Below, in pieces: positions 6,142 to 33,526 of a stretch of 64,000 nt of DNA. A program made the position numbers and the translations under genes. The notes beneath the pieces are model-generated. The model ran no database searches. It was not told the DNA's origin and saw nothing but the letters and a program-made list of their open reading frames with translations. This DNA comes from Rickettsiales bacterium. GTDB lineage: Bacteria > Pseudomonadota > Alphaproteobacteria > Rickettsiales > UBA3002. The stretch covers positions 1,198 through 65,197 of the forward strand of contig JALEGK010000022.1 of NCBI GenBank assembly GCA_022763105.1, given 5' to 3'. Each line of letters opens with the position of its first letter. The first letter of the stretch is position 1.

Positions 6142-7101
6142 TTAGCGCGCTGCGCCAAAGAAGCTGCCTCGTGCCATGACCCGGACGATGGTTGGGCCCA
6201 AAATAATCATGATGAAAGACGGCATCAGCAGGAAGATCAGTGGAATGGTGATCAGCGCTGGCAGGCGGTTTGCTTTGTTTTCTGCCATCAGCAGGCGGGT
6301 TTGGCGATAATCATCCGATAGGACGCGCAGCGTGTCGCTAAGGCTGGTACCAAATTTCTCGGTTTGAACGAGAGCGGCAGCGAGTGAGCGGAAAGGTACC
6401 AAATCGGTGCGATCGCCCAGATTCATCAGCGCTTTACTCCGGTCATTCAGAAGCGCCAGTTCTAGACGGGTACGGTTAAGTTCTCCTGTTAGCTCTGGGT
6501 GTGCTCGGCCAAGCTCGGCGCATACGCGGCTCATAGAGGCGTCGAGCGCTAAACCCGATTCTACGCAGACCAGCAACAGATCGAGCGCATCTGGGAAAGA
6601 ACGTGTGAGCGTTTTTTTGCGGTTTTGGATTTTATTTTCCAGGAACAAATAAGGACCAAATACACCGACAACGACTAAGAATAGACCGATGAAAATGTCA
6701 GCGTAAAACATGGCGCCGTCTTTGCCGCTATTGAAAAAGGGAATACTGACAAGCAAGAAAAAGACGGATGCGATGCGCTGCATAAACAGATAGATAAATG
6801 GCGCATCTGGAGAGTTAATGCCGGCATGGGCAAAGCGCTTGGTTAAGAATTCTCCGGTCGCTTCAGTGTCGACGCCCACCATTTTGAGCATGCTTTCCAT
6901 GACTTCGGCGGTTGGTGATTTTTCGATATCAAGCGTACTGAGGCTTTCATCGCCGCCAGCCATTTCCAGATTACCAGCACCCGGGCCGATACGGCCTTTC
7001 AAGCTTTCGGACTGTTTCTTTTTGCGGATGAAGCCGTCAACCGCCATATATACGGTGAAGACGATCACAAACGTCAGTGCGGCTAGGATTTCTGCGCTCA
7101 T
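6142..7101 (-). CDS. tadC: Tad/Flp pilus inner-membrane platform protein TadC (T2SS-F family)
   Basis: 319 aa with an N-terminal TM, a cytoplasmic helical domain and C-terminal TMs. It is a paralog of the preceding tadB-like ORF and the last gene of the cpa/tad operon. Confidence 0.85.
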   Translation of the reverse strand: MSAEILAALTFVIVFTVYMAVDGFIRKKKQSESLKGRIGPGAGNLEMAGGDESLSTLDIEKSPTAEVMESMLKMVGVDTEATGEFLTKRFAHAGINSPDAPFIYLFMQRIASVFFLLVSIPFFNSGKDGAMFYADIFIGLFLVVVGVFGPYLFLENKIQNRKKTLTRSFPDALDLLLVCVESGLALDASMSRVCAELGRAHPELTGELNRTRLELALLNDRSKALMNLGDRTDLVPFRSLAAALVQTEKFGTSLSDTLRVLSDDYRQTRLLMAENKANRLPALITIPLIFLLMPSFIMIILGPTIVRVMARGSFFGAAR

Positions 7102-7109
7102 TTAATCAC

Positions 7110-8084
7110 CTAAATATCAATATCAATCATTTGATTCACAATAAACATACATAATGCCACCAGTCCTAAAGCGGAGCCTAACAGCACCTGACCTGCGGAT
7201 TCTTCCCATAAAGGCGCGAGGTAGTCGCGGCGCAGGAAGTAGAGCGCAAAGAAGATGACGAATGGCAGAGAACCAAGAATGACCGCGGTGGTGCGGCCTT
7301 CTGAGGTCATGGCGCGGATACGCATGCGCAGCTGTTTACGTTTACGGATGACGTTTGAGAGGTTGCTGATGACTTCAGACAAGTTACCACCGGTTTCTTG
7401 CTGCACGGTGAGTACCACCACGAAGAAGTTGATGTCTGGTTCGGCAATGCGTTCTTCGAGACGTTTAAGCGTGTCATTGATGGTGCGGCCAATCGCAATC
7501 TCATTGACAACCTGCTGAAATTCTTCGCGTACCGGAGAGTCCATATTCTCGGCGACCATTTTAAAAGCGGTCGTAATAGGGAAACCAGAGCGCACACTAC
7601 GCACGATCATGTCGAGCACGTCTGGGAATTGTTCAATGAATTTGTGGTTACGCTTACGAATGCGACGTTTGAAATGCGTGATTGGTAGAAAATACGTGGC
7701 AAGCGGACCAAAAAACAGAGCAGCAGGACCAAGGCCGCTAATTAAGAAGAAAGACGTGCTGACAAACAGCATCGCGACAAAAATAACCGCGAAAGGGGCG
7801 GCTTTTTTCTGGTACCCGGCTTGCACCATTTTGACGTAAAAATTACGCATGAATGGCAGGTCGTAGAATTTCTGGACAAGGAAGGTTTCTTCCGCAAATT
7901 CATCACGAAGGACGTTGTTGTCGTTGCCGCCGTCATTGTCAGCGGTCTGGGTATTTTCGTAGAGTTGCTTAAGGGCGTTACGCGTTTTTGCGCCAGATTC
8001 TTCGGGAATCGCTTTAGGGAATAAGAAAACGAATCCTAGATAGCCTAGAATAATTAAGCCGATGGAAAGAAGTAACCACTCCAT
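7110..8084 (-). CDS. tadB: Tad/Flp pilus inner-membrane platform protein TadB (T2SS-F family)
   Basis: 324 aa with GspF-like topology; lies between cpaF and tadC. Confidence 0.85.
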   Translation of the reverse strand: MEWLLLSIGLIILGYLGFVFLFPKAIPEESGAKTRNALKQLYENTQTADNDGGNDNNVLRDEFAEETFLVQKFYDLPFMRNFYVKMVQAGYQKKAAPFAVIFVAMLFVSTSFFLISGLGPAALFFGPLATYFLPITHFKRRIRKRNHKFIEQFPDVLDMIVRSVRSGFPITTAFKMVAENMDSPVREEFQQVVNEIAIGRTINDTLKRLEERIAEPDINFFVVVLTVQQETGGNLSEVISNLSNVIRKRKQLRMRIRAMTSEGRTTAVILGSLPFVIFFALYFLRRDYLAPLWEESAGQVLLGSALGLVALCMFIVNQMIDIDI

Positions 8085-8109
8085 GAATCAAACGTCCTCT
8101 GACTCGAAG

Positions 8110-9600
8110 CTACACACCGATTGTGAAACATTCAAGCACAGCCTTCGTCAGGCCAAAATATTCCGCGCGAGTTAGCATTTTTGGACGAATACCGTGACAA
8201 ATAAACTCACCTTGTAGCCTTCCCTTGGCATCCAATCCGCTCGCTTTGTAGCTGAATAAGGTTTGGGTAGAAATGACATCTCCTTCGACGCCGCATACTT
8301 CCTCCACCTGAGTCACCTTACGTGTACCGTCACGCATACGTTCAATCTGAACAATGATTTGAAGCGCGCTGGCGATTTGCTGTCTTAGAGAGCCAGATGA
8401 TAGTTTGACCTCGGACATGCCGACCAAATTTTCGATACGAGACAGACAGTCACGTGGGCTGTTGGAGTGAATGGTAGCCATCGAACCATCGTGACCAGTG
8501 TTCATTGCGGTCAGTACGTCGATGACTTCATCACCACGAATCTCACCAAGGATAATGCGGTCTGGTCTCATACGCAGGGCGTTTTTAACGAGCAATCGCT
8601 GCGTGACTTCGCCGCGGCCTTCCATTGATGGTGGACGGGTTTCTAGTCTGAGAACGTGTGGCTGCTGAAGTTGTAATTCCGCAGCATCCTCAATCGTGAC
8701 GATACGCTCGCCGTGGCTAATGCCACCAGAGAGCGCGTTCAGCAGGGTGGTTTTACCACTACCCGTACCACCCGATACGATGATATTCAGGCCGATATGG
8801 GTACATAACTGCAGGAATTTGTACATCTCTTCAGACATGGAGCCGAGCTGCACATAGGCGCTGAGCGGCATTTTGTTCTTTTTGAACTTACGAATGGATA
8901 CCAAGCAGCCATCAAGTGCAAGTGGCGGGATAATCGCGTTAAAACGCGAGCCATCTGGCATGCGGGCATCGACCATTGGCGATGCTTCATCGATGCGGCG
9001 GCCAACGCGCGAGACAATTCGCTGTACGATGGTGAGCAGGTGCTGTTCATCGAGGAACTTCACATCGGTGAGAAAGATTTTACCCTGTTTCTCGATATAG
9101 ACCTGAGAGTGGGTGTTCACCATGATATCGGCGATTTCGTTATCAGCGAGTAGTGGTTCTAGCGGGCCGAAGCCGAAAATTTCATCTAGCGCTTGCGATT
9201 TCAGCGCTGAGATTTGGCTGCCATTCAGTGGCGATGGGATTTCAGATAAGATCTTATCGCAAACACTTAAGACTTTCTTCTTTTGCAACTCTTCATCGAG
9301 TTGGTCTAGTGCGACAAAGTCGACCTGCTTGATAAGCTGGTTCATCAGCTCGTGCTTGGCGTTGTTAAAATCTGGCGTTTCGAGATTTACGTCAACATAG
9401 CTGCTGGTCTCAATCGCCTCACGCTTCATGCCTTCGATGGCTTCGTTGAGGGCGGCGGCATCGACTAAGTCTTTTGACTCGCGCTCTTCTAGCGCGGTGC
9501 TATCGACGGCGACGGGTAAATGTTGTTCAGGCTGTTCTGGTTGTTCTTGAGGTTGCTGCTGTTGTTGTGACGGTTTTTGGTTAGGTTTGCTACCAAACAT
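8110..9600 (-). CDS. cpaF: Tad pilus secretion ATPase CpaF/TadA
   Basis: Walker [40 protein letters not shown] and [14 protein letters not shown] are typical CpaF/VirB11-type motifs. The N-terminus is a low-complexity Q/P/E tract. Confidence 0.93.
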
Positions 9601-9650
9601 AATGACTTCCCTGTTGAATTGGCCGGACGGTAAAACGACAATTTATCGAG

Positions 9651-10808
9651 TTACAAGTGTGCCTGATTCTCAGTAAAACTGCCACCATTTTCTATCGATT
9701 GAGCCACCTCCATCATGCCTGTAGCGAGCTTAGATTTGCCCACTTCGATGATGGTTTTGCCCATATTTTCTGCGTTTACGACGGTTTTAATGTCGTTTGG
9801 CAGATGGAAAGAAATTTTCTTGTTACAGACGCGTTCAAAATCGCGCGCTGACACCCCTTCTTTGAATTTCGCGCCGCTTCGGTTGATGATCACGTCGACA
9901 TGACCTAAATCGATGCCGATTTCGCGCCATACATTGAGTAGGCGAGAGGCGTGGGTAACAGATTTTAGCCAAAGCTGCGCGACCAGAATAATCGAGTCTG
10001 AATTACTGAAAGCGGCTGAAATCCATGGGGACCAGATATGCGGCAGATCAAGAATGACGTAGCGATATTCTGATTTGAGAGCGAGTAGTAAGTCGCGAAT
10101 CATCTCAGGATTCAGATCGGGTAGATATTTGAGCTCGTTAGGCGCGGCGATCAGGTCTAGATAGTCGTTATACTGAACCGCCATGCGCTTAATCAGCGTG
10201 CTGTCGATACCGCGGTCTGGGTGCTCAAACAGCTCTTTAATACCGTAAGGCGAGCCTAGATCGAGGTTCTTACAGACCATGCCGAATTGGTAATCCATAT
10301 CGACCACGATGGTTTTTGCACGGAACTCTCGCGCCAGACAATAAGCGGCATTCAGGGCTACGGTGCTGGAACCATCGCCAGCGGCAGCACTCATAAAGGC
10401 GATTGCGCTGCTATTCGTATTGGAAGAGCTACTAGATGCGCCAATAAGCGCACGGCTTACCTCTTCCATGTTTGGCGGGTAGGTGAAATATTCAGCAATG
10501 CCGCGCTCGATCAATGCGCGATAATATTTGATGTCGTTTACTTGGCCGATGACCACGACTTGCGTGCCAGAGACGCAATGCTCAGACATTTCTTCTAACT
10601 CTGCGAAGACTTCCTGAGAGCGCTCGCCAGTAAACATAGCGATATATTTCGGGGTGTAGCGGTTCGCATCAATGAAGCGCGCTGCATCATATCCATTACC
10701 TACGACGACATTGGCAAATGAGTAGCCAAGCAGATTGGCTAATTGATTTCCTAGGGGGCGCTCATCTTCTGATGAGATGACGACCAGAACCGGACTTTGT
10801 GTATCCAC
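9651..10808 (-). CDS. cpaE: Tad pilus assembly protein CpaE/TadZ (receiver-like N-domain plus atypical ParA/MinD-like domain)
   Basis: 385 aa, in the cpaD-cpaE-cpaF position, with a MinD/ParA-like fold (IVVDMDYQFG, VILDLPH). The Walker A position reads SAAAGDGSSTVALN and has no lysine. Confidence 0.8.
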   Translation of the reverse strand: MDTQSPVLVVISSEDERPLGNQLANLLGYSFANVVVGNGYDAARFIDANRYTPKYIAMFTGERSQEVFAELEEMSEHCVSGTQVVVIGQVNDIKYYRALIERGIAEYFTYPPNMEEVSRALIGASSSSSNTNSSAIAFMSAAAGDGSSTVALNAAYCLAREFRAKTIVVDMDYQFGMVCKNLDLGSPYGIKELFEHPDRGIDSTLIKRMAVQYNDYLDLIAAPNELKYLPDLNPEMIRDLLLALKSEYRYVILDLPHIWSPWISAAFSNSDSIILVAQLWLKSVTHASRLLNVWREIGIDLGHVDVIINRSGAKFKEGVSARDFERVCNKKISFHLPNDIKTVVNAENMGKTIIEVGKSKLATGMMEVAQSIENGGSFTENQAHL

Positions 10809-10833
10809 GCTACAACCTTATACAGCTATAAAG

Positions 10834-11412
10834 TTAGTTAATTTCAGCGTTATCAAGAAGAGAGTCGTCCAAGGTAAATTGCTCGGTTGGCTCCAGATAT
10901 TTTTGATACGCCTTCACAGCTTTATAGGAACTTACCGGATCCATCAAGTTCGGACGCACAAATTGATGCTTATCTGACACCATTTGGACGATGTTTGCCG
11001 CATTTGAGCACCCAAAGCTTGGGTGATTCAGGTTGCTGCCGTTACCAATCCTGTCAATATAGCGGTTTTCGCAGTCACGTGCGAGTACGCGCTCATACAC
11101 CAATGACACAACACTATCGAGTGATGGCACATAAAGAGTGGCAACACCGTATAGGTCTAATACTTCTTGAGCCGCAGAGCAGCGCTCATCTGCTTCTGGG
11201 CAATATAGTTCAGCGCGGGTTGGCTGGTCGTGCTGAATCCAGTCTGCCATTTCATCCAGGGCGACTTCTGATTCAACGGATAGGTTGACCACTTCGGCAG
11301 AGACATCGAGCAGGCTTTCAGGTGCGCCGCGATTGTAATAAGCCGATGTTGGGACATCTGATGAACAAGCAGCCAGAATCAGTAGAGCGGGAGCAAGTAT
11401 GAGATGTTTCAT
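10834..11412 (-). CDS. cpaD: Pilus biogenesis lipoprotein CpaD
   Basis: Lipoprotein signal MKHLILAPALLILAAC. About 190 aa with a GCSNAANIVQMVSD motif, located between the secretin gene and cpaE. The start overlaps the cpaC stop (TAATG). Confidence 0.75.
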   Translation of the reverse strand: MKHLILAPALLILAACSSDVPTSAYYNRGAPESLLDVSAEVVNLSVESEVALDEMADWIQHDQPTRAELYCPEADERCSAAQEVLDLYGVATLYVPSLDSVVSLVYERVLARDCENRYIDRIGNGSNLNHPSFGCSNAANIVQMVSDKHQFVRPNLMDPVSSYKAVKAYQKYLEPTEQFTLDDSLLDNAEIN

Positions 11413-12791
11413 TAGTCTACCATAAACCCGATTGGGCCTTCTAAGCTAGGAGATTGCGACATATTGCTTGCATTGCCAGACAAAGAACCCAAAGCGCCGT
11501 AAAATAGTGACTCCATAGTCGATGCTGGGCGGAAATCGTCTGAAGGCATACGTACATCTGAAGATTTCAACGGATCAACCAGATAAGGCGTTACGGCAAG
11601 AACCAGTTCGGTCTCTTGACGCTCAAAGCTGGTATTGCGGAATAAAGAGCTGAGAATCGGAATCTCGCTCACACCCGGCAGCTGGTTGATGGTGGTGTTT
11701 AGGTTGTCTTGAATCAGGCCTGCAATCATGAAGCTTTCGCCTGGAGCCAGTTCAATAGTGGTGCTCGCACGACGGACATCGAAGGCAGGAACAATAGCGC
11801 CGCCACCGATATCTACGCCATCACCATCGTTACGTTCTGATACTTCTGGCTGCACCTGAATGCGAATGCGGTTTGGAGTAAGAACGAACGGGCGGAAGCG
11901 AACCGACACACCGAAGGTTTTGTAATCTACTGTGATGGTGTCATTTGATTGGGCCACCGGAATTGGCACTTCACCACCGGCTAGGAATTCTGCCTCTTCA
12001 CCCGATAGTGCCACAAGATTTGGCTCAGCCAATACTTTAAGCAAATTGTCTTGCTCGAGCGCATCAATGGTCGCAGAGATAGAATTTTGGCCGCTAGAGT
12101 TGGTGTAAGAAACACCAAGGCTGGTTAAGCCAGCAATGCCGCTGCTTGATAGAATCTGAAATGGTACATCGCCAGAGCCTTTGATGGCATCAAAATCGAT
12201 ACCTAGCTGCTTTAGGGTGCCGCGCTGTACTTCACCAATACGAATACGCAGCATAACCTGCTGGCCGGCGCTTACTTTCATCAGGTTGATGACGTTATTA
12301 TTTTCCATCTTGCTGTCATATTGCTGATCCAATTCTTCATTGGCATCGCGCACAGGATTCAAAAACTGCGTCGCAATTTCTAAAGCAGTATTGGCAGAAG
12401 ATGAGCTGGACACTTCACCGGTTAGCGCAACTTTGGTGTTTACCATTTCAACGCCAATGCGCTCATTTGGCAGGAAGTCATGAAGGGCGCGGCGGATAGC
12501 AGGCAGGTCATAAGTGACCATTACATCCATGTCGCGGATAAGGCGGTTATTCTCATCAAACAAGCGAACAGAGGTTTCGCCTAAGGTCTTTCCAATGATG
12601 GAGAGCTTGTCTTTGCCATGCACATATATATCGGCGATATCCGGATTAGAGACGATGACTTCGCCTAAATCGACAGAAGAGGTGACAATTTCGGAACGGT
12701 TGACGGGAACGTAGAATTTGGTGGTCGCTGCGTTGGCTGAGGCCGCTAGTGCTATAATGAAAAAAGGTACTAATTTTATTGTTTTAAACAT
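11412..12791 (-). CDS. cpaC: Tad pilus outer-membrane secretin CpaC/RcpA
   Basis: Signal peptide, N-terminal pilus-formation domain (IVSNPDIADIYV), and C-terminal secretin domain (LLKVLAEPNLVALSGEEAEFLAGGEVPIP, IPILSSLFR). Confidence 0.92.
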   Translation of the reverse strand: MFKTIKLVPFFIIALAASANAATTKFYVPVNRSEIVTSSVDLGEVIVSNPDIADIYVHGKDKLSIIGKTLGETSVRLFDENNRLIRDMDVMVTYDLPAIRRALHDFLPNERIGVEMVNTKVALTGEVSSSSSANTALEIATQFLNPVRDANEELDQQYDSKMENNNVINLMKVSAGQQVMLRIRIGEVQRGTLKQLGIDFDAIKGSGDVPFQILSSSGIAGLTSLGVSYTNSSGQNSISATIDALEQDNLLKVLAEPNLVALSGEEAEFLAGGEVPIPVAQSNDTITVDYKTFGVSVRFRPFVLTPNRIRIQVQPEVSERNDGDGVDIGGGAIVPAFDVRRASTTIELAPGESFMIAGLIQDNLNTTINQLPGVSEIPILSSLFRNTSFERQETELVLAVTPYLVDPLKSSDVRMPSDDFRPASTMESLFYGALGSLSGNASNMSQSPSLEGPIGFMVD

Positions 12792-12815
12792 TATAGCCCG
12801 GCTATGTTTCCTTCC

Positions 12816-13787
12816 TTAGTTGGAATTAGCGCGGGTGGCAGTGCGTGCCCTTGCTTCCTCCAGTCTAAGTAACGATTCTTCATTCTCAACCTGCGTTCCT
12901 CTGACTACGACTACCGGTATAAATTCTTCGTCATTATTGGCGACCGGAACTTCGTCATCAGACATTGGAACTCCACTAGATTGTGATAAATCACTTTGAC
13001 GTGTAATTGCAACCGTTTCTATGGTTTGCTTGTCGGCAAGTGATCTAAGTGTCAGAGAGACCTTTCCAATTTCTGTAGCTAATTTAAGCCTTTGCGAATC
13101 TTCGGGCGCGACTTCTAGAGAAACCGATCTGGGGATAACTATGCCGCCATCTCGGTTAACGCCAGTAGAGCTGCGCTGATCAACCGCAAGAACGCGCACA
13201 TTCGATAGTAGCGTTTCGGTCACATCTTCATATAGGTTCTTTTGCGTGCGGGCATCTTTCAGGTCACGCTCACGCACACCCTTCTTCAGAATTTCGTGCG
13301 TTACCAATACATCTACGCGGTCGCCTGGGAATACGAAACCGGCGACGCCATCGATCTCATTGGTGCGGATGGTTGCGACGCGCATCCCTTTAGGCAGGTT
13401 GCCTGCAAGGAAGTTTGGATCGTCAGGGTTGACCATCTTGCTCATAATGAATGGTTCGCGTGGTTGGAATGGGGAGCGGGTTACCATGCCCACGAGCGCT
13501 TCACCCTTTTTGTTGCCGACCACGAAGTCTTTAAGAAGTAGGTGCTTCGGCCATGGCTGCACATCAAGCATGTTCTCTTCTACCACGGTTCCAACAGGGA
13601 TAAAGTTGGCGGCGACATACACATCAACGGTTTCGATGCGTGGCTCAGCGCGCTGCTGCACCTGAACTGGGCGGTTTTGTGCGACGATCGGCTTCGCCTT
13701 CTTCTCATCGCTTCCAGAGAGCTTTAGTACCATAAATGCCGCAACAGCAGCGACAAATACAGCGATGACCAGTCCAATCCATTTCAT
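12816..13787 (-). CDS. cpaB: Flp pilus assembly protein CpaB/RcpC
   Basis: N-terminal TM MKWIGLVIAVFVAAVAAFMVL, SAF-like domain, RcpC-like segment (GFVFPGDRVDVLVT). It is the first gene of the operon. Confidence 0.88.
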   Translation of the reverse strand: MKWIGLVIAVFVAAVAAFMVLKLSGSDEKKAKPIVAQNRPVQVQQRAEPRIETVDVYVAANFIPVGTVVEENMLDVQPWPKHLLLKDFVVGNKKGEALVGMVTRSPFQPREPFIMSKMVNPDDPNFLAGNLPKGMRVATIRTNEIDGVAGFVFPGDRVDVLVTHEILKKGVRERDLKDARTQKNLYEDVTETLLSNVRVLAVDQRSSTGVNRDGGIVIPRSVSLEVAPEDSQRLKLATEIGKVSLTLRSLADKQTIETVAITRQSDLSQSSGVPMSDDEVPVANNDEEFIPVVVVRGTQVENEESLLRLEEARARTATRANSN

Positions 13788-27670: not shown

Positions 27671-27855
27671 GGGTGCCTCGCTTTCTCACAATTTAGTATT
27701 GTTGTTATGAGAAAATCTTAGCGGAGTTTTGTTACAGTTTTGTGACGGTCGCGCTGGCCGAAATCATTGCTGGCTTAAACTGCGTCAAGTCGATAGGTTT
27801 TTATGGCACGCGAATAATCATGCGATTCATTACACATAATAAGGAGGCATACGTT

Positions 27856-29214
27856 ATGCGCTTATCACTAATTCACCACAGTATTTTGCCTTTAATGTTA
27901 TTCTTTTCATGTTTTAGTGTGCCTGCTTTAGCGACAGACAATAATAGCCTTTTGCTGCTTATCGATAGCTCTAACTCTATGTATGAAGAGTTGGGTGGCG
28001 AGAAGAAAATAGATGCGGTGAAAGAGACAATTGAGGCGTTGGCCCCCTCTTTTCCAAATGATTTAGATATTCGTGTGGCTTCTTATGGTCGCGACGCACG
28101 CAATTCTTGTTACACAATTAAGTCTTTTTCCCCTTTTGTAGATGGAAAAAACACATCGGGCTTAGAAAAGGCTCTAGAGGAATTTATTACACCTAAACAT
28201 CGCAAGCCCATTGAGTCGGCATTAGAGCCTGCCGTATTCGCCGCAGAAGAAGGACATGAGCAAGGTAGTAACCATGTGGTGGTGATTACGGATGGCTTAG
28301 AGGCATGTGCGATCAATGTCTGTGATGAAGCAAGACGGTTAAGTTTAAGCAATCCGCGTTTGAAGATTCATGCGGTCGGCTATGCCATCGATATGAAAGC
28401 GTATCGTCCGCATATTATTCAATGTATTGCGGATGATGGTGCCGGGCAGTTCATCAATACGCATAGCAAGCAAGAGCTATCAGAGGCGCTAAAGACGATC
28501 ATATCGTCAATTACAAAGCCTGAGACGGATAAATCGCCCAAAAAATGGCATTTGCTTGAGGAAATGACCTTTTCTGACGCCGATTCAATGAAAAACTGGC
28601 GCATAATGGACCCTGTTGAGGGTCAGCACACAGTAAAAGAGGGTGAATTGGTGTTGATAGCGCCTGAAAACGCCCATACAGATGATATTTCCCCCAAAAA
28701 CCGACTAGAATTAGTGAAAAAGCTTCCAAATGGTGATTGGAAGATCAGCACACGCATCGATATGGAGTTTATTACCACCCATGAGGCATTTGAAATAGGC
28801 ATTAGGGATAAAGAGGGGAATTACGTGGCGGCAAGCTTTTTGTCGCGCGGATTTGCTCCGGCCACGGTTATGTTGGCCGTTACCAGCAGCGACAATGGTG
28901 CCGTTGTAAGCAAGGAACGCCAAATGTTTCGTAATGTTCTGACAGGTTGGCAGGGAACGAGGAAAATGGCAGCGGAGCGCATGCCGTTTGATTTGGAGTT
29001 GATCCGAAAGAATGATCGCTATTTCGCGCGCGCCTTATCTGCCCAAAATGGGCGCTATCTCTTTGAAACAGAAGAGATAAAACTCGATCTAAAGCCGGAA
29101 TCAATCTATTTGTCGTTATATCAGCGCCCGAATGACGTTCATCATATACCGCGTAAGAAACATCAAACTATTTCAACGTTAAAATGGGTTAAAATTTTTA
29201 ATATTACCGACTAA
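27856..29214 (+). CDS. Secreted von Willebrand factor type A (vWA) domain protein with an unassigned beta-rich C-terminal domain
   Basis: AAGGAGG RBS 8 nt before the ATG at 27856. Signal peptide MRLSLIHHSILPLMLFFSCFSVPALA. MIDAS LLLLIDSSNSM (DxSxS), VVVITDGLE. The ORF stays open to 27742. Confidence 0.8.
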   Translation: MRLSLIHHSILPLMLFFSCFSVPALATDNNSLLLLIDSSNSMYEELGGEKKIDAVKETIEALAPSFPNDLDIRVASYGRDARNSCYTIKSFSPFVDGKNTSGLEKALEEFITPKHRKPIESALEPAVFAAEEGHEQGSNHVVVITDGLEACAINVCDEARRLSLSNPRLKIHAVGYAIDMKAYRPHIIQCIADDGAGQFINTHSKQELSEALKTIISSITKPETDKSPKKWHLLEEMTFSDADSMKNWRIMDPVEGQHTVKEGELVLIAPENAHTDDISPKNRLELVKKLPNGDWKISTRIDMEFITTHEAFEIGIRDKEGNYVAASFLSRGFAPATVMLAVTSSDNGAVVSKERQMFRNVLTGWQGTRKMAAERMPFDLELIRKNDRYFARALSAQNGRYLFETEEIKLDLKPESIYLSLYQRPNDVHHIPRKKHQTISTLKWVKIFNITD

Positions 29215-29227
29215 ATAAGTCGGTAAT
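29203..29227 (+). terminator. Perfect 9-bp inverted repeat spanning the vWA gene stop (weak, AT-rich hairpin)
   Basis: attaccgac / taaataa / gtcggtaat, followed only by ttg. Confidence 0.25.
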
Positions 29228-29292
29228 TTGCTGATAAATATACTGATGCCCTGCGCGCATTAATAAACTAATTCAATAATTTTGCTAAAATT

Positions 29293-29372: not shown

Positions 29373-30569
29373 ATGCAACATGTAATTAAACACGTATTTT
29401 TATCAGTTATTCTGCTGATCGTGGCTTCCACCACGGTGTATGCAAATAATTCTAACGTTCAAGTAACGCGCATTCCTTGGCAGACGTCAGGCTATCAGGC
29501 GACTGACTCTTATTGGAATGAACCACCATTATCTTGTTTGCCTTGGCGCGCAGGAAAGTGGACTAGCGAAAGTGACAAACCATTATGTCACTGTCCGCCA
29601 GCTTCTATGTGTCCGAGCAGTGTGGCAGATTGGAATGCTAGCCCAATCGTTCCACCTTATATGCTGACGGCATGTTGTAATATTTCATGTCCGCGCGGTA
29701 CCGTTGCCGATATTGACCCTTGTGGTCGTACTGAGACGGTTAATACTGGTTCAGAAGGCCAGGGCGCAGACCCTAATGCCCCAACGCAAGCTGAGCGTGT
29801 GGCGGCACGTATGAACACCAACATTCAGAAAGCCTTAGCAGAAGGCGTGATGAGTGTCGCAAATGAATGTCAATCGTGTCAGGATACGGAAGGCCCTGAA
29901 GAGGGTGATCCAAAAGACGTTGATCCGATTGGCTGTGAAGGCTTGAGCGGTTGTGAAGTGACCCCTCAGGATGCTTACACCATTTGTATTCCAACCTTGA
30001 GCTGTACACCAATTTCAGAAAATCCATGTGATAAGGTCACCGATTTGACCGATCCACATCGTGATCCTTCGCTACAGGCTACAACCGACATCTCTTGTAC
30101 GGTGGCGGAAGCATTCTGTATTCTTGAAGGTACCGAGATTGTGCTGGTTGATGGTTCTAAGAAGAACATCGAAGACATCAAGCTTGGTGACAAACTCCGC
30201 AGTGGTGCGAAGAACGTGGTGATGGTTGAGGCTGTCTCTAAGGTGATTCGTAAGAAGGGCGCGCTACACTCTATCAATGGTAGCCGTGCATTCATTACTG
30301 CAGAACACCCTATCATGACCACTAAAGGTTGGAAGGCCATTGCTCCTAATAGTGACCTGGATCACAGTATTAAGATTCTAGGTGCGCTAGAAGTGGGCGA
30401 TGAAATCGTAACAGCAGACGGCACAGAAACCGTCAAGACGATTGAAGCGAAAGACCTTGAGTCTGATGCTGGTGTTGCCACTTACAACCTGATTGTGAAT
30501 GGTGATGGAACTTTTGTGGCTGACGGCGTTGTCGTCAAAAGCATGAGAAAATCAGCAATTTACTACTAA
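29373..30569 (+). CDS. Secreted protein: signal peptide, 16-Cys N-terminal domain, C-terminal Hint (Hedgehog/intein-like, bacterial intein-like) domain
   Basis: Signal peptide ...ASTTVYA|NN. Hint blocks: C249-ILEGTEIVLVDGSKKNIEDIKLGD (block A), FITAEHPIMTTKGWKAIA (TxxH block B), TYNLIVNGDGTFVADGVVVKS (C-terminal block, no His-Asn). Only about 8 residues follow. Confidence 0.8.
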   Translation: MQHVIKHVFLSVILLIVASTTVYANNSNVQVTRIPWQTSGYQATDSYWNEPPLSCLPWRAGKWTSESDKPLCHCPPASMCPSSVADWNASPIVPPYMLTACCNISCPRGTVADIDPCGRTETVNTGSEGQGADPNAPTQAERVAARMNTNIQKALAEGVMSVANECQSCQDTEGPEEGDPKDVDPIGCEGLSGCEVTPQDAYTICIPTLSCTPISENPCDKVTDLTDPHRDPSLQATTDISCTVAEAFCILEGTEIVLVDGSKKNIEDIKLGDKLRSGAKNVVMVEAVSKVIRKKGALHSINGSRAFITAEHPIMTTKGWKAIAPNSDLDHSIKILGALEVGDEIVTADGTETVKTIEAKDLESDAGVATYNLIVNGDGTFVADGVVVKSMRKSAIYY

Positions 30570-30592: not shown

Positions 30593-31999
30593 ATGAAACG
30601 TATCAACTTCTTCAAAAACGACCTAGGGAGCATTGCTCTCATGGGTGCTGCAGCGATTACATTGTTAGTTGTTGCGGCCGGTGTCACCATTGACGCTGCA
30701 AAATATGTCACTGTAAAATCCAAATTCCGTAATGCTGTGGATGCTGCTTTGCTTTCATCAGCTGCGGTTGCCTGGGAATATGAAAATGAATTGGATGAGG
30801 TGGCAACCCGCTTCTTCCATGCCAATTTCCCTGAGCAATATATGGGTTCTTTCAACCTCAGCGCAGTTCATGTTGAGCATAATGCCCAAGAGTTTTCTTG
30901 GACCATTCGCATGGACGGCGATGTTAACACTACCTTTGGTGCTTTGGTCGGGTTTGACTCGATCAGCATGAGCCACCAGGCGCGTGTTGAGGTGGATACC
31001 AGCGCCCATGTGGATGCTGTGTTCACACTTGATACTTCGGCATCGATGTGTACGACGACCCGTCGCGCACAACGTGACGATACCGATGAATATGCCATTG
31101 AGTATGTGCCAGATGGTGAATGTAAGAAGCTAGAAGCAGCTAAGGAGGCGTTGACCTATATTGCAGATCACGCATTCCCATCGTCTGCTACAGAAGCTGG
31201 CCCAATCTTTAATATGGGTGTTGTACCATTCAACCATAAAGTACGTTTGCCGCGTCAGGATAGTATTCCAGCGCCAATGCGTGCGGTTGAGGCTCGTAAC
31301 CCTATCGAAGGCGATTTTGGTAATAATGTGACCTTTACCGTGAATACGGCAGGTGCCAATTATTACAGCAATCTGTCTGATGCAAACCCGCTTTCAGAAG
31401 TCATTTCACTGACTCGTATGAATAGCGCGGCTGCTAAGGAAGATCTGAAAGACAAAATCGATGATATTTTCCAAGGGCCACACGGTCTGGGTTGGACCCG
31501 CTCTAATATTGCGGCTTATACCGCAGCTCTGATGCTTGATCCTGACTATTACCGTCACTTTGATGGTGAGCGTCCAGGTGAGTTTCTACCAGAGAATGAG
31601 AAGATCGTTGTGATGATGACTGATGGTGCCAATATTGGTTGCTGCTGGTTCTCACACCCATACGGTACCTTTGAAAACCAGTATCTGTATCTATACGAAG
31701 CTGATTTGGCTCACCTGACCGGTCTGGATAAGGCTAGTGGCTGGGCACGTCAGTGGAAAACACAGTACAACATTCCTGAGGAAGGTCTGTGTAAGAAGAT
31801 GAAGGAACGAGGTGTTATCATCTATTCTATTATCTTTGACGTAGAAGATGGCGATCCAGGTGGGCAGCAGATTAAAGAAGCCTACAAGGATTGTGCAAGT
31901 AATGACCAATTCTTCTTCGATGTGAAATCGGATGAAGACCTCAAGAACGCATATCGTACGATTGCTAGTTCGTTCATGCCACTGCGCTTGAGCTACTAA
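30593..31999 (+). CDS. TadG-like protein: TadE/G-like N-terminal anchor plus vWA domain
   Basis: N-terminus MKRINFFKNDLGSIALMGAAAITLLVVAAGVTIDAAKY (Tad_N/TadE-G-like). MIDAS AVFTLDTSASM and VVMMTDGAN. Lies 23 nt after the Hint gene and has its own RBS (AGGAGA). Confidence 0.8.
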   Translation: MKRINFFKNDLGSIALMGAAAITLLVVAAGVTIDAAKYVTVKSKFRNAVDAALLSSAAVAWEYENELDEVATRFFHANFPEQYMGSFNLSAVHVEHNAQEFSWTIRMDGDVNTTFGALVGFDSISMSHQARVEVDTSAHVDAVFTLDTSASMCTTTRRAQRDDTDEYAIEYVPDGECKKLEAAKEALTYIADHAFPSSATEAGPIFNMGVVPFNHKVRLPRQDSIPAPMRAVEARNPIEGDFGNNVTFTVNTAGANYYSNLSDANPLSEVISLTRMNSAAAKEDLKDKIDDIFQGPHGLGWTRSNIAAYTAALMLDPDYYRHFDGERPGEFLPENEKIVVMMTDGANIGCCWFSHPYGTFENQYLYLYEADLAHLTGLDKASGWARQWKTQYNIPEEGLCKKMKERGVIIYSIIFDVEDGDPGGQQIKEAYKDCASNDQFFFDVKSDEDLKNAYRTIASSFMPLRLSY

Positions 32000-32217: not shown

Positions 32218-32598
32218 TTAGTAGCCCGATGCGTCGGCAAAGAAATTCTCAGCCCATTCTTCTTCGGCAAATTCTACATCATAGAGCAGCATGGTTTCTG
32301 GCATGTCTTGCTGGTTTGATGGGGCGGCTTCTTGCTGCGCGATGGTCGTGGCTTCTGGAGCGGTTGGCGGGTTGCCGACGGCACCGATAAGAATAAATAG
32401 ACCCACCACAGAGGCCATGACGACATAGCGCATGGATGGCACATATAGCCACGCTTTGAGCAGTCTTAACGGCGCAAAGAGAGGGAATTGCCTGCGAGGA
32501 TTCTCCTTAGCAAGCTGCACGATTCTACTGACCGCTGCGTCATCTGCCGCAGGGATATAGAGGGAGCGTAGCATCTCATGTGTCGATTTATTATCCAT
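32218..32598 (-). CDS. Putative anti-sigma factor (single-pass membrane protein downstream of the ECF sigma gene)
   Basis: 126 aa with a central TM (YVVMASVVGLFILIGAV). Overlaps the sigma gene stop by 8 nt. Confidence 0.55.
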   Translation of the reverse strand: MDNKSTHEMLRSLYIPAADDAAVSRIVQLAKENPRRQFPLFAPLRLLKAWLYVPSMRYVVMASVVGLFILIGAVGNPPTAPEATTIAQQEAAPSNQQDMPETMLLYDVEFAEEEWAENFFADASGY

Positions 32599-33157
32599 AC
32601 CGTTCCATCCGCTCTGTCACCACCTGACTGCGCAACTGCGTGCGTGCACGTGAAAGCAGTGATTCCAGCGCTTTAACTGATATACCCATCATATCAGCGA
32701 TCTGTTTTTGAGACAAATCCTCAAAGTAGAACAGATTCACCGCAATGCGCTGACGTTCGGGTAGCTCTTTTAATACGCTTCTAAGTGCCATTTGCCTTTG
32801 TTTGTCTATTTGTTCATCTTCTGCCGTGGGGCCTTCATCTGGAATGTCATCCTTCAGCTCACTGACGCTGCGGTTACGTTTGCGTAGTAAATCCACGGCC
32901 TGATTGTATAAAATCCGGTAAAACCACGTAGTAAAGCGGGCTTTCTTCTTTGCCTTCCAGCGCGCCTTTCCTGACCATATTTTCATAAATGCTTCTTGAA
33001 CGACGTCTTCCGCATCTTCTGCGTGTAGCACCCAACGATAAACCTGGCGGTAGAATCGCTGGTGGTGGCGAGAAACCAGGGTTTCAAACGCTCTCACCTC
33101 GCCTGCATGGATAAAATCCATGAGGCTTTCATCAGGCATATCCTTGAATGCTAACAC
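32591..33157 (-). CDS. ECF-type RNA polymerase sigma-70 family factor
   Basis: Region 2 (DAEDVVQEAFMKIW, FTTWFYRILYN) and region 4 (LPERQRIAVNLFYFEDLSQKQIADMMGISVKALESLLSRAR). Confidence 0.9.
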   Translation of the reverse strand: MLAFKDMPDESLMDFIHAGEVRAFETLVSRHHQRFYRQVYRWVLHAEDAEDVVQEAFMKIWSGKARWKAKKKARFTTWFYRILYNQAVDLLRKRNRSVSELKDDIPDEGPTAEDEQIDKQRQMALRSVLKELPERQRIAVNLFYFEDLSQKQIADMMGISVKALESLLSRARTQLRSQVVTERMERYG

Positions 33158-33169
33158 TAAATCGACCGC

Positions 33170-33526
33170 CTATTCACCCGGTTCTGGGTGATGACCACCG
33201 CCATGTGGTGGTTTATGGCCTTTGAACTTCTTGCGACGTTCCATTTTCTGTTCCACATGTTTGATTTTCTCATCATCTGACATGCTTTCCCAGCGTTCTT
33301 CCATTTTTTCGAGCCGTTTTTGACGTTTCTCTTCAATGGTTTGGAGCTTCTCTTCCTTGCTCATTTTTTCCCATTTTTCTTTGCGCTCTTTATGGAATGC
33401 TGCGCGTTCTTCAGGTGACATGTTCTTTATTTTCTCGCGCATGCCGCCTTCGTGATGTTCTGCATAGGCTGGGGCTGCATTTAGCGCCAATACAGAGCAT
33501 GTTAGTATCAGTAGATGTTTTAGCAT
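33170..33526 (-). CDS. Periplasmic Glu/Lys-rich repeat protein with His-rich termini
   Basis: GGAGGA RBS, then the ATG at 33526. Signal peptide MLKHLLILTCSVLALNAAPAYA. Mature protein starts EHHEGG, carries three MS(x)EE(K/R) repeats, and ends HGGGHHPEPGE. The ORF stays open to 33619. Confidence 0.6.
   Translation of the reverse strand: MLKHLLILTCSVLALNAAPAYAEHHEGGMREKIKNMSPEERAAFHKERKEKWEKMSKEEKLQTIEEKRQKRLEKMEERWESMSDDEKIKHVEQKMERRKKFKGHKPPHGGGHHPEPGE

What the first reader, a model, noticed from the sequence alone, without database searches (positions are those of the whole stretch)
30117..30569. Terminal Hint domain with nucleophilic Cys but no His-Asn and no C-extein: Hedgehog-style rather than intein-style processing
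From Cys249 (TGT 30117-30119) the sequence shows these Hint blocks: C-ILEGTEIVLVDG, TAEHPIMTTKGW and TYNLIVNGDGTFVADGVVVKS. The penultimate His and terminal Asn of true inteins are replaced by K-S, and only about 8 residues follow. That leaves only the N-S acyl shift at Phe248|Cys249 as possible chemistry. It would be resolved by hydrolysis or by transfer of the N-terminal domain to another nucleophile, as Hedgehog transfers to cholesterol. Bacterial intein-like (BIL) and Hint_2 domains are known as families, but their substrates and biological role are largely unknown.
Basis: partly seen in the sequence, partly recalled or inferred. Interest (0 to 1): 0.75.

Follow-up and report, generated by a model that had tools for sequence, protein, structure and literature searches.

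The report
Self-cleaving Hint protein in Tad pilus-tip cassette
A secreted, cysteine-rich bacterial protein ends in a genuine Hedgehog/intein-type self-cleaving domain that can only cut at its front end, and this uncatalogued protein family almost always sits among the minor-pilin genes that build the tip of Tad adhesion pili, which gives a first testable clue to what such bacterial domains are for.

Summary
ORF 29373-30569 (+, 398 aa) has a signal peptide, an N-domain with 16 Cys, and a C-terminal Hint fold starting at Cys249. Foldseek against Tetrahymena BIL2 gives E=2e-11 and TM 0.8; pLDDT is 87-97. Cys1 and the block-B T-x-x-H are conserved. His-Asn is replaced by K389-S390, and eight residues follow.

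By sequence and fold, the domain is closer to BIL domains and inteins than to Hedgehog Hog. There is no sterol-recognition region.

Three things are new:
- It belongs to a distinct subfamily (51 members aligned). The nucleophile is the only Cys in the Hint domain in 50 of 51 members, and the N-domain Cys count is even.
- The eight "leftover" residues are a conserved C-terminal motif (F-x-x-[VM]-[QE]-[IM]-[HQ]-Y). It resembles the C-terminal strand motif of the adjacent TadG-like protein.
- In 11 of 13 independent loci the gene lies in a tadE-tadF-X-tadG minor-pilin cassette. The window also carries rcpC-tadC pilus machinery 16 kb away.

Best reading: a Tad-tip-associated accessory protein whose N-domain is released or transferred by N-S acyl-shift chemistry. 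Cleavage, tip docking and transfer are inferred, not shown. I rate it a new variant of a known kind.

The parts
29373..30569 (+). Whole gene: 398-aa precursor made of a signal peptide, a Cys-rich N-domain, a Hint domain and a conserved tail. A GGAG Shine-Dalgarno sequence lies 8-11 nt upstream of the ATG.
   Evidence: The long ORF is the right one because the family's most conserved N-terminal motifs (W48...C72-H-C-P-P76...C80-P81) lie upstream of the 315-aa public gene call P0001.
29373..29444 (+). Sec-type signal peptide, residues 1-24 (MQHVIKHVFLSVILLIVASTTVYA|NN). It has no lipobox and no prepilin G/xxxxE motif.
   Evidence: Read directly from the sequence. AF2 models residues 2-17 as a helix. 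Homologues have equivalent hydrophobic N-termini. The cleavage site is inferred.
29445..30116 (+). N-domain (the 'N-extein', residues 25-248; 23.9 kDa, pI 4.2) with 16 Cys. It contains a conserved folded module at about residues 51-120 (29523-29732) carrying W..PPL.CLP.RA..W, CHCPP...CP and CC...CP.G, followed by a variable, poorly predicted middle region.
   Evidence: Cys census. Conservation. AF2 pLDDT is 72-90 for residues 51-120 and below 50 for 158-198 and 216-245. No Pfam family matches.
30114..30119 (+). Predicted scissile junction Phe248|Cys249 (TTC TGT). A near-invariant Cys (C242 here) lies 6-12 residues upstream of the junction in most members (44 of 50).
   Evidence: The residue at -1 is F in the window clade, G in most other members and S/T/D in the more divergent ones.
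30117..30542 (+). Hint-fold autoprocessing domain, residues 249-390. Block A is C-ILEGT. Block B is T309-A-E-H312 (30297-30308). Block F is Y-N372-L...F-V-A-D-G. Block G is V-V-V-K389-S390 in place of ...H-N.
   Evidence: AF2 pLDDT 87-97. Foldseek PDB search. phmmer and profile searches against PDB. Pfam at family level. Cys249 is the only Cys in this domain.
30543..30566 (+). Conserved C-terminal tail M391-RKSAIY-Y398. The family consensus is F-x-x-[VM]-[QE]-[IM]-[HQ]-Y-COOH. Its function is unknown; the candidate role is a docking strand.
   Evidence: Alignment of 51 members. F391 and Y398 are conserved in at least 90%. AF2 gives mostly coil with mean pLDDT 64, against about 96 for the last core block. 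The same F-x-x-phi-x-phi-x-Y/Q ending occurs in all 10 linked TadG-like proteins recovered with a complete C-terminus, including the window's, and in none of the other roughly 100 gene-like ORFs.
30593..31999 (+). TadG-like minor pilin-like protein (468 aa), starting 23 nt downstream and probably co-transcribed. It has a Tad-type N-terminal hydrophobic segment with no Glu at +5 after the predicted G|S site, a vWA-like region with a D-T-S-A-S MIDAS-type motif, and the C-terminus ...SFMPLRLSY.
   Evidence: Pfam Tad 18.2 bits and VWA 15.5 bits, both below cutoff. Across nine orthologues, Tad matches 5 of 9 (best 3.8e-6) and VWA 4 of 9. The gene is a conserved neighbour of the Hint gene in 9 loci.
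27742..29214 (+). Secreted vWA-domain protein; the real start is probably M39, at 27856. It is a conserved neighbour only within the window's own clade.
   Evidence: Pfam VWA 32.6 bits, VWA_2 31.8 bits. It is 34-37% identical to the divergently oriented vWA genes next to the Hint gene in L001 and L010.
6142..13787 (-). Tad pilus machinery operon about 16 kb upstream: rcpC, rcpA (secretin), cpaD-like, tadZ-like, tadA (ATPase), tadB and tadC.
   Evidence: Pfam RcpC, Secretin plus T2SS-T3SS_pil_N, Pilus_CpaD, AAA_31, T2SSE and T2SSF x2. No flp or tadE/F-type G/xxxxE[YF] motif was found anywhere in the window.

Best explanation
The gene encodes a Sec-exported precursor. Its disulfide-rich N-domain (residues 25-248) is joined through Phe248|Cys249 to a BIL/intein-lineage Hint domain. 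That domain keeps the N-junction catalytic set (Cys1, block-B Thr/His) but has lost the C-terminal His-Asn.

In the periplasm the single free thiol, Cys249, attacks the Phe248 carbonyl (N-S acyl shift). The resulting thioester is resolved by water or another nucleophile. This yields a 23.9-kDa N-domain and a 16-kDa Hint+tail fragment. Splicing is impossible.

The protein is an accessory component of a Tad-pilus 'tip' cassette (tadE-tadF-X-tadG). Inferred: its invariant eight-residue C-terminal tail, which mimics the C-terminal strand motif of the neighbouring TadG-like minor pilin, docks the Hint end onto the minor-pilin tip complex. This would parallel the way PilC/PilY1 dock on PilK by beta-strand addition. 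The variable N-domain would then be presented at, or exported by, the pilus and set free, or handed over, by the Hint reaction.

Shown here: the fold, the motif conservation, the Cys pattern and the gene linkage. Inferred: that cleavage occurs, where it occurs, the tail docking, and the fate of the N-domain.

The confidence of 0.55 is for the composite. For its parts I put about 0.85 on 'N-cleavage-only Hint domain', about 0.65 on 'Tad tip-cassette accessory protein' and about 0.3 on 'tail docks by strand addition'.
For: Hint fold:
- Foldseek gives E=2e-11 and TM 0.8 to BIL2.
- AF2 pLDDT is 87-97 over the domain.
- Profile hits to BIL2 and inteins.
- 51 of 51 members hit Pfam Vint.

Catalytic competence:
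- Cys1 is present in all 51 aligned members.
- Block B is T/S-x-x-H-P in all members, with H312 and P313 invariant.

No C-terminal chemistry:
- K/H/R/Q/S followed by G/S/P/A replaces His-Asn, and the next residue is F or M, never C, S or T.

Extracytoplasmic design:
- There is a signal peptide.
- The Hint domain holds exactly one Cys in 50 of 51 members. The exception has two Hint domains.
- The mature N-domain has an even Cys count in 43 of 51 members; the odd ones are mostly fragments.

Tad linkage:
- 11 of 13 independent loci have TadG-like and/or TadE/TadF genes directly adjacent: the window, L001, L004, L005, L010, L011, L012, L013, L014, L016 and L017.
- The other two, L007 and L009, have type-IV-pilin-like genes nearby.
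- The window itself carries rcpC-tadC.

Tail:
- It is conserved and is not a confident part of the Hint core.
- It shares F-x-x-phi-x-phi-x-Y with the TadG-like C-termini.

Precedent:
- PilC/PilY1 use their last ~10 residues for strand addition in trans, and TadG/CpaL does so in cis (PMC13533445).
- TadEFG form separately encoded 'Tip' modules (PMC12075869).
Against: - There are no experimental data. Cleavage is inferred only from conservation.
- The TadG-like partners already carry their own C-terminal strand motif, so no vacant acceptor site for a trans strand is evident.
- The tail pattern was defined after seeing both families. A looser version also matches two OMP-like proteins, so it may just be a generic amphipathic terminal strand.
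- In the window the tail is the most divergent in the family (MRKSAIYY).
- The window locus has no tadE/tadF next to it and lies 16 kb from the machinery.
- Only 13 loci were available, most from metagenomes.
- The window protein alone is sub-threshold in Pfam.
Confidence: 0.55

Rival explanations
1. Plain self-removing pro-domain. The Hint domain is only an autoproteolytic maturation device, or an intramolecular chaperone, that releases the Cys-rich N-domain into the periplasm or medium by hydrolysis. The tail is a structural or regulatory element of the Hint domain itself, for example a latch near the junction. The Tad linkage reflects only that the freed N-domain works with TadG and vWA proteins.
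For: - BIL domains mostly give cleavage products (PMC7664689; PMC7765530).
- The catalytic set is conserved.
- AF2 shows isolated beta-bridges at residues 244 and 396, which could pair the tail with the segment just before the junction.
- The TadG-like partners already have their own C-terminal strand.
Against: - The tail has clearly lower confidence than the core and is mostly coil.
- Its similarity to the TadG-like C-terminus is unexplained under this reading.
- A disposable pro-domain would not be expected to keep an invariant free C-terminal motif.
Confidence: 0.27
2. Hint-mediated ligation. The thioester at Phe248 is resolved by a specific nucleophile instead of water, covalently attaching the N-domain through its C-terminal Phe/Gly. 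Candidate nucleophiles are a Lys of the TadG-like pilin or the vWA protein, a pilin N-terminus, a lipid amine, peptidoglycan or a target-surface molecule.
For: - The closest solved relative, T. thermophila BIL2, conjugates its N-extein to Lys residues of other proteins through an isopeptide bond (PMC8616854).
- Hedgehog transfers its N-domain to cholesterol (PMC7664689).
- The gene is tightly operonic with one specific partner gene; gaps are 13-33 nt in five of the eight loci measured and up to 140 nt in the rest.
Against: - No acceptor-recognition module such as an SRR follows the Hint domain; only eight residues do.
- No conserved acceptor Lys was identified.
- There are no data of any kind on adducts.
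Confidence: 0.13
3. Catalytically silent Hint domain used only as a binding or structural module. There is no cleavage and the protein functions full-length.
For: - The window protein scores below Pfam thresholds.
- The block-F Asp is Asn (N372).
- The penultimate His is Lys.
Against: - Cys1 and the block-B His are invariant across 51 divergent members (about 25-55% identity), and Cys1 is kept as the sole Cys of the domain in an oxidising compartment. This is hard to explain without catalysis.
- N372 is also Asn in the HN-containing relatives.
Confidence: 0.05
4. The tail is an outer-membrane or protease-recognition signal rather than a pilin-docking strand. It would act as a BAM beta-signal-like motif or a DegS/DegP/Prc-type C-terminal motif, targeting the Hint fragment to the OM or to degradation.
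For: - The loose tail regex also matches two OMP-like ORFs ending ...TRLQVNF and ...TRVQIAF in L012.
- An HtrA-like protease gene follows the Hint gene in L007.
Against: - The same motif ends the TadG-like proteins, which are inner-membrane-anchored pilin-like proteins and not OMPs.
- The Hint fold is not a beta-barrel.
- The protease neighbour appears in only one locus.
Confidence: 0.07

Closest known systems
BIL2 domain of the Tetrahymena thermophila BUBL1 polyubiquitin-like locus (PDB 6Y75/6TMM)
   Same: - It is the best sequence match (E=2.7e-4 with the single sequence, 1.8e-7 with the profile) and the best fold match (E=2e-11, TM 0.8).
- It has Cys1 and a block-B His.
- It acts by N-S acyl shift and hands its N-extein to another nucleophile (PMC8616854).
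   Different: - BIL2 keeps His-Asn (N143) and has a C-terminal flank (ubl5). It is eukaryotic and cytoplasmic.
- The window protein is bacterial and secreted. It has K-S instead of H-N and ends after an eight-residue conserved tail.
Bacterial intein-like (BIL) domains, types A and B (Amitai et al. 2003; e.g. C. thermocellum BIL, PDB 2LWY)
   Same: - Hint domains in non-conserved, often secreted bacterial proteins.
- No +1 nucleophile.
- They give cleavage rather than splicing.
- Type B lacks the intein C-terminal motif (PMC7765530).
- 2LWY matches by fold (E=1.6e-7) and by profile (1.8e-4).
   Different: - Type A is defined by a conserved C-terminal His-Asn, which is absent here.
- Type-B membership could not be tested directly. 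Pfam Hint_2 gives no hit for the window protein and only weak hits for 23 of 51 members.
- The tail motif and the Tad cassette context were not found for BILs in the literature I could search.
Hedgehog C-terminal (Hog) autoprocessing domain
   Same: - It is a C-terminal Hint domain on a secreted precursor.
- It uses only the N-S acyl shift.
- The N-domain is released with possible transfer to a nucleophile.
- In many family members, though not the window clade, the junction is G|C, as in Hedgehog. That Hedgehog has this junction is from my own knowledge.
   Different: - There is no sterol-recognition region.
- Fold similarity is weaker: 1AT0 and 6TYY at E about 1e-4, ranked 35-37.
- No Hog chain is found by profile at E<=0.01.
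- Pfam PF01079 gives no hit for the window protein.
Bacterial secreted proteins with a C-terminal Hint-like domain noted by Buerglin 2008 and by Dassa & Pietrokovski (MXAN_6253, STIAU_1829, plu1731, MED297_11140)
   Same: - Same architecture: signal peptide, conserved upstream Cys residues and a terminal Hint-like domain without His-Asn (PMC2362128).
   Different: - The C-terminal motifs differ...F/LAGGxLVGD..MQ followed by about 20 residues ending LP, against ...ANGxxVK[GS]F..[VM]Q[IM]HY here.
- No Tad link is reported for that group. They appear to be a sister subgroup, not the same family.
PilC/PilY1 tip adhesins and TadG/CpaL (functional analogy only)
   Same: - PilC/PilY1 are exported by Sec and signal peptidase I, are disulfide-rich, and have variable N-terminal domains.
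- They have a conserved extreme C-terminal peptide and are encoded beside minor pilins.
- In PilC/PilY1 that peptide is a beta-strand donated to a PilK-type minor pilin. In TadG/CpaL the strand is supplied in cis (PMC13533445).
   Different: - There is no beta-propeller, and the conserved C-terminal domain is a Hint fold.
- Strand donation by this tail is untested.
- A self-cleavable link between anchor and N-domain has no counterpart in PilY1.
Eukaryotic Vint (vWA-Vwaint-Hint) proteins
   Same: - Pfam Vint is the best-scoring Pfam model: 26.4 bits for the window protein, and 51 of 51 members match.
- A Hint domain is associated with vWA domains. Here the vWA domains are in neighbouring genes.
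- Vint structure 8R2C matches at E=2.4e-6.
   Different: - Vint proteins are eukaryotic, probably intracellular, single-chain vWA-Hint fusions conserved only in motifs A and B (PMC2362128).
- Here the vWA domains are on separate, secreted or pilin-like proteins.

Membership tests
HINT (Hedgehog/intein) superfamily | Hint beta-fold | tested here: met
   AF2 pLDDT is 87-97 for residues 249-390. Foldseek gives probability 1.0 to 48 PDB Hint, intein or BIL chains at E<1e-3.
HINT (Hedgehog/intein) superfamily | Block A nucleophile (Cys/Ser) as first residue, and block B T-x-x-H | tested here: met
   C249 and T309-A-E-H312 are present. Cys1 occurs in all 51 aligned members. H312 is invariant and T309 is conserved in at least 90%.
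Inteins (class 1) | C-terminal His-Asn and a +1 Cys/Ser/Thr on the C-extein | tested here: not met
   K389-S390 align with the His-Asn of BIL2. The next residue is Met here and Phe in most members.
Inteins (class 1) | Inserted in-frame within a conserved host protein whose two halves are ligated | tested here: not met
   The domain is terminal. Only an eight-residue tail follows, and the N-domain is a variable, family-specific region.
BIL type A | Highly conserved C-terminal His-Asn without a +1 nucleophile (PMC7765530) | tested here: not met
   There is no His-Asn. The first of the two positions is His in only 2 of the 51 members aligned (P0004, VVVHG; P0095, MHA), and neither has an Asn after it.
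BIL type B | Intein N-terminal and central motifs but no intein C-terminal motif, with N-terminal autocleavage (PMC7765530) | tested here: inconclusive
   The motif pattern is compatible. However, I had no BIL-B profile. Pfam Hint_2 gives no hit for the window protein and weak hits in 23 of 51 members. Cleavage is not testable here.
Hog (Hedgehog C-terminal domain) | Hint module followed by a sterol-recognition region, plus Hog-specific motifs | tested here: not met
   Only eight residues follow the Hint core. There is no PF01079 hit for the window protein. No Hog chain appears by profile at E<=0.01. Hh ranks low by fold.
Vint | Pfam PF14623 at or above the gathering score, and a vWA-Vwaint-Hint single-chain architecture | tested here: not met
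   The score is 26.4 bits against a cutoff of 27. The vWA domains are encoded in separate neighbouring genes.
Buerglin / Dassa-Pietrokovski bacterial C-terminal Hint group (MXAN_6253 type) | Signal peptide, conserved upstream Cys pair, terminal Hint ending ...LVGD..MQ...LP | tested here: not met
   The signal peptide and upstream Cys are present, but the C-terminal motifs differ.
Tad pilus tip (TadE/F/G) cassette component | Encoded within or next to tadE/tadF/tadG minor-pilin genes | tested here: met
   11 of 13 loci qualify. In the window a TadG-like gene lies 23 nt downstream, and rcpC-tadC lies at 6142-13787.
Tad pilus tip (TadE/F/G) cassette component | Physical association with the pilus tip or minor pilins | not testable with these tools
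No experimental data exist.
PilC/PilY1-like trans beta-strand donors | The last ~10 residues complete the beta-sheet of a PilK-type minor pilin (PMC13533445) | not testable with these tools
   The only evidence is indirect. The tail is conserved, has low confidence and is mostly coil in the monomer model. Its motif is shared with the TadG-like C-termini.

The most novel reading that the evidence does not exclude
The Hint domain is a pilus-tip protein ligase or release device. Its conserved C-terminal octapeptide inserts as a beta-strand into the Tad minor-pilin tip complex. The Cys249 thioester is then used to do one of three things:
- covalently transfer the Cys-rich N-domain, via Phe248, onto a Lys of the TadG-like or vWA tip protein;
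- transfer it onto a molecule on the contacted surface;
- release it on demand after export through the RcpA secretin.

This would be a bacterial, extracytoplasmic counterpart of Hedgehog cholesteroylation and of BIL2 ubiquitin-like conjugation. It would also be the first assigned biological role for a BIL-type domain in a pilus system.
Probability: 0.12. Interest if true: 0.9.

Novelty: new variant of a known kind. Interest (0 to 1): 0.6.

Why it matters
Bacterial Hint/BIL domains have been known for two decades, but almost none has an assigned biological role or partner. This subfamily offers both:
- a defined and conserved genomic partner set, the TadE/F/G tip minor pilins;
- a clean, testable chemistry. 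There is a single free Cys in an otherwise disulfide-bonded secreted protein, and the predicted products are 23.9 and 16.0 kDa.

If the link holds, it adds a non-pilin, self-processing component to Tad pilus tips, which drive adhesion, biofilm formation, predation and virulence. It would also extend the recent 'C-terminal beta-strand addition' model of tip assembly to Tad accessory proteins. Finally, it could supply a natural extracytoplasmic N-cleaving Hint domain for protein engineering. If the link does not hold, this is still a well-delimited new Hint subfamily that current Pfam and NCBIfam models miss or score below threshold.

Tried and rejected
- **First AF2 run with 7 sequences.** It gave a poor overall model (mean pLDDT 52) and was superseded by the 51-sequence run.
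- **Third homologue search with the 51-sequence profile.** It was capped at 8000 candidates and added only P0201, plus a usable record for P0137.
- **GTDB genome scan.** It found only 3 loci, all in MAGs. The window's own genome was not recovered.
- **Metagenome scan.** With A2, the scan mostly returned ordinary inteins in DnaE-like and other host proteins, and only one new family locus, L017.
- **Regex search for Flp/TadE-type prepilin motifs in the window.** Nothing was found.
- **Promoter and terminator scan of 27.2-32.7 kb.** Counts were at or below the shuffled expectation, so it was uninformative.
- **Polymorphic-toxin / PT-HINT reading.** Rejected because there is no domain after the Hint, no immunity-like gene, and PT-HINT hits only 13 of 51 members weakly.
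- **Canonical intein reading.** Rejected; see the membership test.
- **'Public 315-aa gene call is correct' (P0001).** Rejected because conserved motifs and the signal peptide lie upstream of that start.
- **NCBIfam.** There is no family for either the Hint protein or the TadG-like partner. The only hits go through the intein part of an intein-containing radical-SAM model.
Full report
**1. The observation.**
The window has a 398-aa ORF at 29373..30569 on the + strand. TGT at 30117-30119 is codon 249 and is preceded by TTC for Phe248.

The residues occupying the intein His-Asn position are K389-S390 (30537-30542). In a phmmer alignment to the crystal construct of the Tetrahymena thermophila BIL2 domain, they align with that chain's His and its mutated Asn (N143A). 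Eight residues follow (MRKSAIYY, 30543-30566), then TAA.

**2. Is it really a Hint domain?**
On its own the protein is borderline in curated libraries. Pfam Vint scores 26.4 bits against a cutoff of 27. Hom_end_hint scores 19 bits. Hint_2, Hog-Hint and PT-HINT give nothing. NCBIfam only touches the intein part of an intein-containing protein model.

The assignment becomes solid with family and structure evidence:
- A 7-sequence profile of the domain hits BIL2 at E=1.8e-7, the Mtu RecA mini-intein at 4.8e-5 and the C. thermocellum BIL at 1.8e-4.
- All 51 aligned family members hit Pfam Vint (best 1.2e-15). In addition, 42 hit Hom_end_hint, 23 Hint_2, 17 Hog-Hint and 13 PT-HINT.
- AlphaFold2 with the 51-sequence alignment gives pLDDT 87-97 over residues 249-390.
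About 45 further intein, BIL, Vint and Hedgehog chains followed at E<1e-3.
- Phage 'Hint domain containing proteins' are the top viral matches.

**3. Which kind of Hint?**
By both sequence and fold, the nearest solved relatives are BIL2, mini-inteins and the clostridial BIL. Hedgehog structures (1AT0, 6TYY) rank 35th-37th by fold at E about 1e-4. They are absent at E<=0.01 by profile. No sterol-recognition region follows the Hint core.

'Hedgehog-style' is therefore a fair description of the architecture and of the only chemistry left. It is not a description of ancestry.

Buerglin (2008) and Dassa & Pietrokovski had already noted a group of secreted bacterial proteins with terminal Hint-like domains and conserved upstream cysteines (PMC2362128). 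Their C-terminal motifs (...LVGD..MQ...LP) differ from those seen here. This looks like a sister subgroup rather than the same family.

**4. The family.**
A word-indexed search of 5.8 billion proteins found only six homologues. An exhaustive profile search of 1.84 billion cluster representatives found 5292 Hint-containing proteins at E<=1e-3, of which 238 had E<=1e-30.

Among the best 150 hits listed, about 45 representatives share the full architecture:
- a signal peptide;
- a conserved N-terminal module (W..APLACLP.RA..W, CHCPP...CP, CC...CP.G);
- a variable middle region;
- a Cys 6-12 residues before the junction;
- Cys1 of the Hint domain;
- a C-terminus ...F[IY]ANG..[VM]K[GS]-F-x-x-[VM]-[QE]-[IM]-[HQ]-Y-stop.

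The nearest other relatives keep ...YLVHN and often end one residue later (HNK-stop). Others occur as tandem or multiple Hints in giant, partly phage-like proteins.

In the 51-member alignment:
- Cys1 is present in every member.
- H312, P313, N302, N372 and several Gly/Asp positions are invariant.
- T309, C242, F391 and Y398 are conserved in at least 90% of members.

The N-domain has no Pfam family, and neither protein has an NCBIfam family. The public gene call for the window protein (P0001, 315 aa) starts downstream of the conserved N-terminal motifs and the signal peptide, so it is truncated.

**5. Design for an oxidising compartment.**
The window protein has 16 Cys in the mature N-domain and exactly one, the nucleophile, in the Hint domain.

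Across the family, the Hint domain has a single Cys in 50 of 51 members. The exception carries two Hint domains and two Cys. The N-domain Cys count is even in 43 of 51 members, and the odd cases are mostly N-terminal fragments.

This is what one expects for a Sec-exported protein whose N-domain is fully disulfide-bonded while the catalytic thiol stays free. Together with the invariant block-B His, it argues that the domain is catalytically used rather than a fossil.

**6. Genomic context, the main new finding.**
Twenty-three nucleotides downstream lies a 468-aa gene (30593-31999) with these features:
- a Tad-type N-terminal hydrophobic segment;
- no Glu at +5 after the predicted G|S site;
- a vWA-like region with a conserved D-T-S-A-S motif;
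- a C-terminus ...SFMPLRLSY.

Orthologues of this TadG-like gene follow the Hint gene in L001, L004, L005, L010, L011 (two copies), L012, L014 and L017. TadE/TadF-type genes flank it in L004, L005, L011, L013, L014 and L016. L011 shows the complete order tadE-tadF-hint-tadG-tadG.

The two remaining loci, L007/8 and L009, carry type-IV-pilin-like (N_methyl) genes nearby. In total, 11 of 13 independent loci place the gene in a Tad minor-pilin cassette.

The window also encodes rcpC-rcpA-cpaD-tadZ-tadA-tadB-tadC at 13787..6142 on the - strand. No flp or tadE/F motif was found in the 64 kb. Separately encoded TadEFG 'Tip' modules are known from Myxococcus and are proposed to be general (PMC12075869).

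A secreted vWA protein (27742-29214) is an additional conserved neighbour in the window's own clade.

No paper in the searchable library combines 'Hint domain' with Tad pilus, TadG or pilin in a relevant way.

**7. The tail.**
The eight residues after K-S are not a remnant. F391 and Y398 are near-invariant, and the pattern F-x-x-phi-x-phi-x-Y-COOH is kept across members that share only about 25-35% identity with the window protein.

In the good AF2 model the tail is mostly coil with mean pLDDT 64, against about 96 for the last core block. There is a single beta-bridge at residue 396 and another isolated one at residue 244.

All ten TadG-like partners recovered with a complete C-terminus end in the same pattern (F-[LMV]-x-L-R-[ILV]-x-Y/Q). 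A strict regular expression for it matches 15 of 122 gene-like ORFs in all loci, and all 15 are Hint-family or TadG-like proteins. A looser version also picks up two OMP-like proteins. The pattern was defined post hoc, so this is suggestive only.

A recent study gives the relevant precedent (PMC13533445). Sec-exported, disulfide-rich PilC/PilY1 adhesins dock on PilK-type minor pilins by donating their last ~10 residues as a beta-strand. TadG/CpaL supplies the equivalent strand in cis from its extreme C-terminus.

I therefore propose, as an inference, that the Hint protein's tail is a docking strand for the Tad tip complex. The main objection is that the TadG-like partners already have their own strand, so the acceptor is unclear. 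I could not model the complex.

**8. Mechanism proposed.**
Steps shown by sequence or structure evidence:
- probable Sec export (signal peptide);
- a Hint fold with an intact N-junction catalytic set;
- loss of the His-Asn pair and of any +1 nucleophile;
- operonic linkage to Tad tip genes.

Steps inferred:
- Cys249 performs an N-S acyl shift on the Phe248-Cys249 bond.
- The thioester is resolved by water or another nucleophile, giving a 23.9-kDa N-domain and a 16.0-kDa Hint+tail fragment.
- The Hint+tail end is held on the TadE/F/G tip. The N-domain is thereby presented or exported by the pilus and then released or handed over.

Transfer to a protein Lys has a direct precedent in the closest solved relative. 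BIL2 conjugates its ubiquitin-like N-extein to other proteins through an isopeptide bond (PMC8616854). Nothing here shows that transfer occurs.

B-type BILs are reported to cleave C-terminally by an atypical route (PMC7765530), so removal of the tail cannot be strictly excluded.

**9. Verdict.**
The finding is real. The domain is BIL-like rather than Hog-like, the 'missing C-extein' is a conserved motif, and the gene belongs to Tad pilus tip cassettes.

I class it as a new variant of a known kind: a new terminal-Hint subfamily with a new, specific genomic partnership. It is of moderate-to-high interest because it makes the long-open question of what bacterial Hint/BIL domains do directly testable in a defined system.

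Noticed in passing
window 6142-13787 (-): A Tad pilus machinery operon is present (rcpC, rcpA secretin, cpaD-like, tadZ-like, tadA, tadB, tadC). It has no recognisable flp pilin, prepilin peptidase or tadE/F genes beside it. guaA starts 144 nt from rcpC on the other strand, so the pilin genes must lie elsewhere in the genome.
   Followed up: partly
window 27742-29214 (+): This is a secreted vWA-domain protein with a roughly 240-aa C-terminal region of unknown family. It is conserved (34-37% identity) next to the Hint gene in L001 and L010, but in divergent orientation there. The listed GTG start is probably too far upstream; a signal-peptide-like segment begins at M39.
   Followed up: partly
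window 29205-29232 (+): A perfect 10-bp inverted repeat (attaccgact-aaataa-gtcggtaat), followed by ttt, sits right after the vWA gene stop. It may be a terminator separating that gene from the Hint-TadG-like pair. The consensus terminator scan did not report it.
   Followed up: no
window 32218-33619 (-): An ECF sigma factor gene (32591-33157) overlaps a 126-aa gene (32218-32598) that is probably its anti-sigma factor. It is preceded by a 149-aa secreted protein with a His/Gly/Pro-rich C-terminus (33170-33619). The group is convergent with the TadG-like gene. Whether it regulates the Hint/TadG pair is unknown.
   Followed up: no
window 37468-38415 (+): A 315-aa protein carries six RTX calcium-binding nonapeptide repeat matches (HemolysinCabind, E=2e-34). 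It sits amid glycosyltransferase, methyltransferase and GDP-mannose genes.
   Followed up: no
window 21419-25601 (+): A 911-aa protein has a spermidine-synthase-like domain in its middle. It is followed by an overlapping 484-aa protein with no Pfam match.
   Followed up: no
relatives P0055, P0056, P0058, P0072, P0081, P0105: Some relatives carry 2-5 Hint domains in one chain, in proteins of up to 4119 aa. In some the domains abut directly (...LVHNK-AGG-CCFLQGT...). P0081 and P0105 have an HN-type Hint immediately followed by a tail-type terminal Hint. Several giant members have phage-structural-protein-like N-termini.
   Followed up: no
relatives P0084, P0144, P0146, P0172, P0177: A side branch of the secreted terminal-Hint proteins ends ...[KR]-[SD]-N-stop. 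This is an Asn as the very last residue, one position later than in inteins, and there is no tail. It hints at a different C-terminal solution.
   Followed up: no
L012 4929-7306 (-): Two adjacent porin/OMP-like ORFs end in ...TRLQVNF and ...TRVQIAF. These classic beta-signal-like C-termini resemble the loose form of the Hint/TadG tail pattern. They are the basis for the beta-signal rival explanation.
   Followed up: partly
P0001 (public gene call for window 29373-30569): The public collection holds this protein as a 315-aa product starting at residue 84. That call removes the signal peptide and the conserved CHCPP module, so automated annotation would miss that the protein is secreted.
   Followed up: yes
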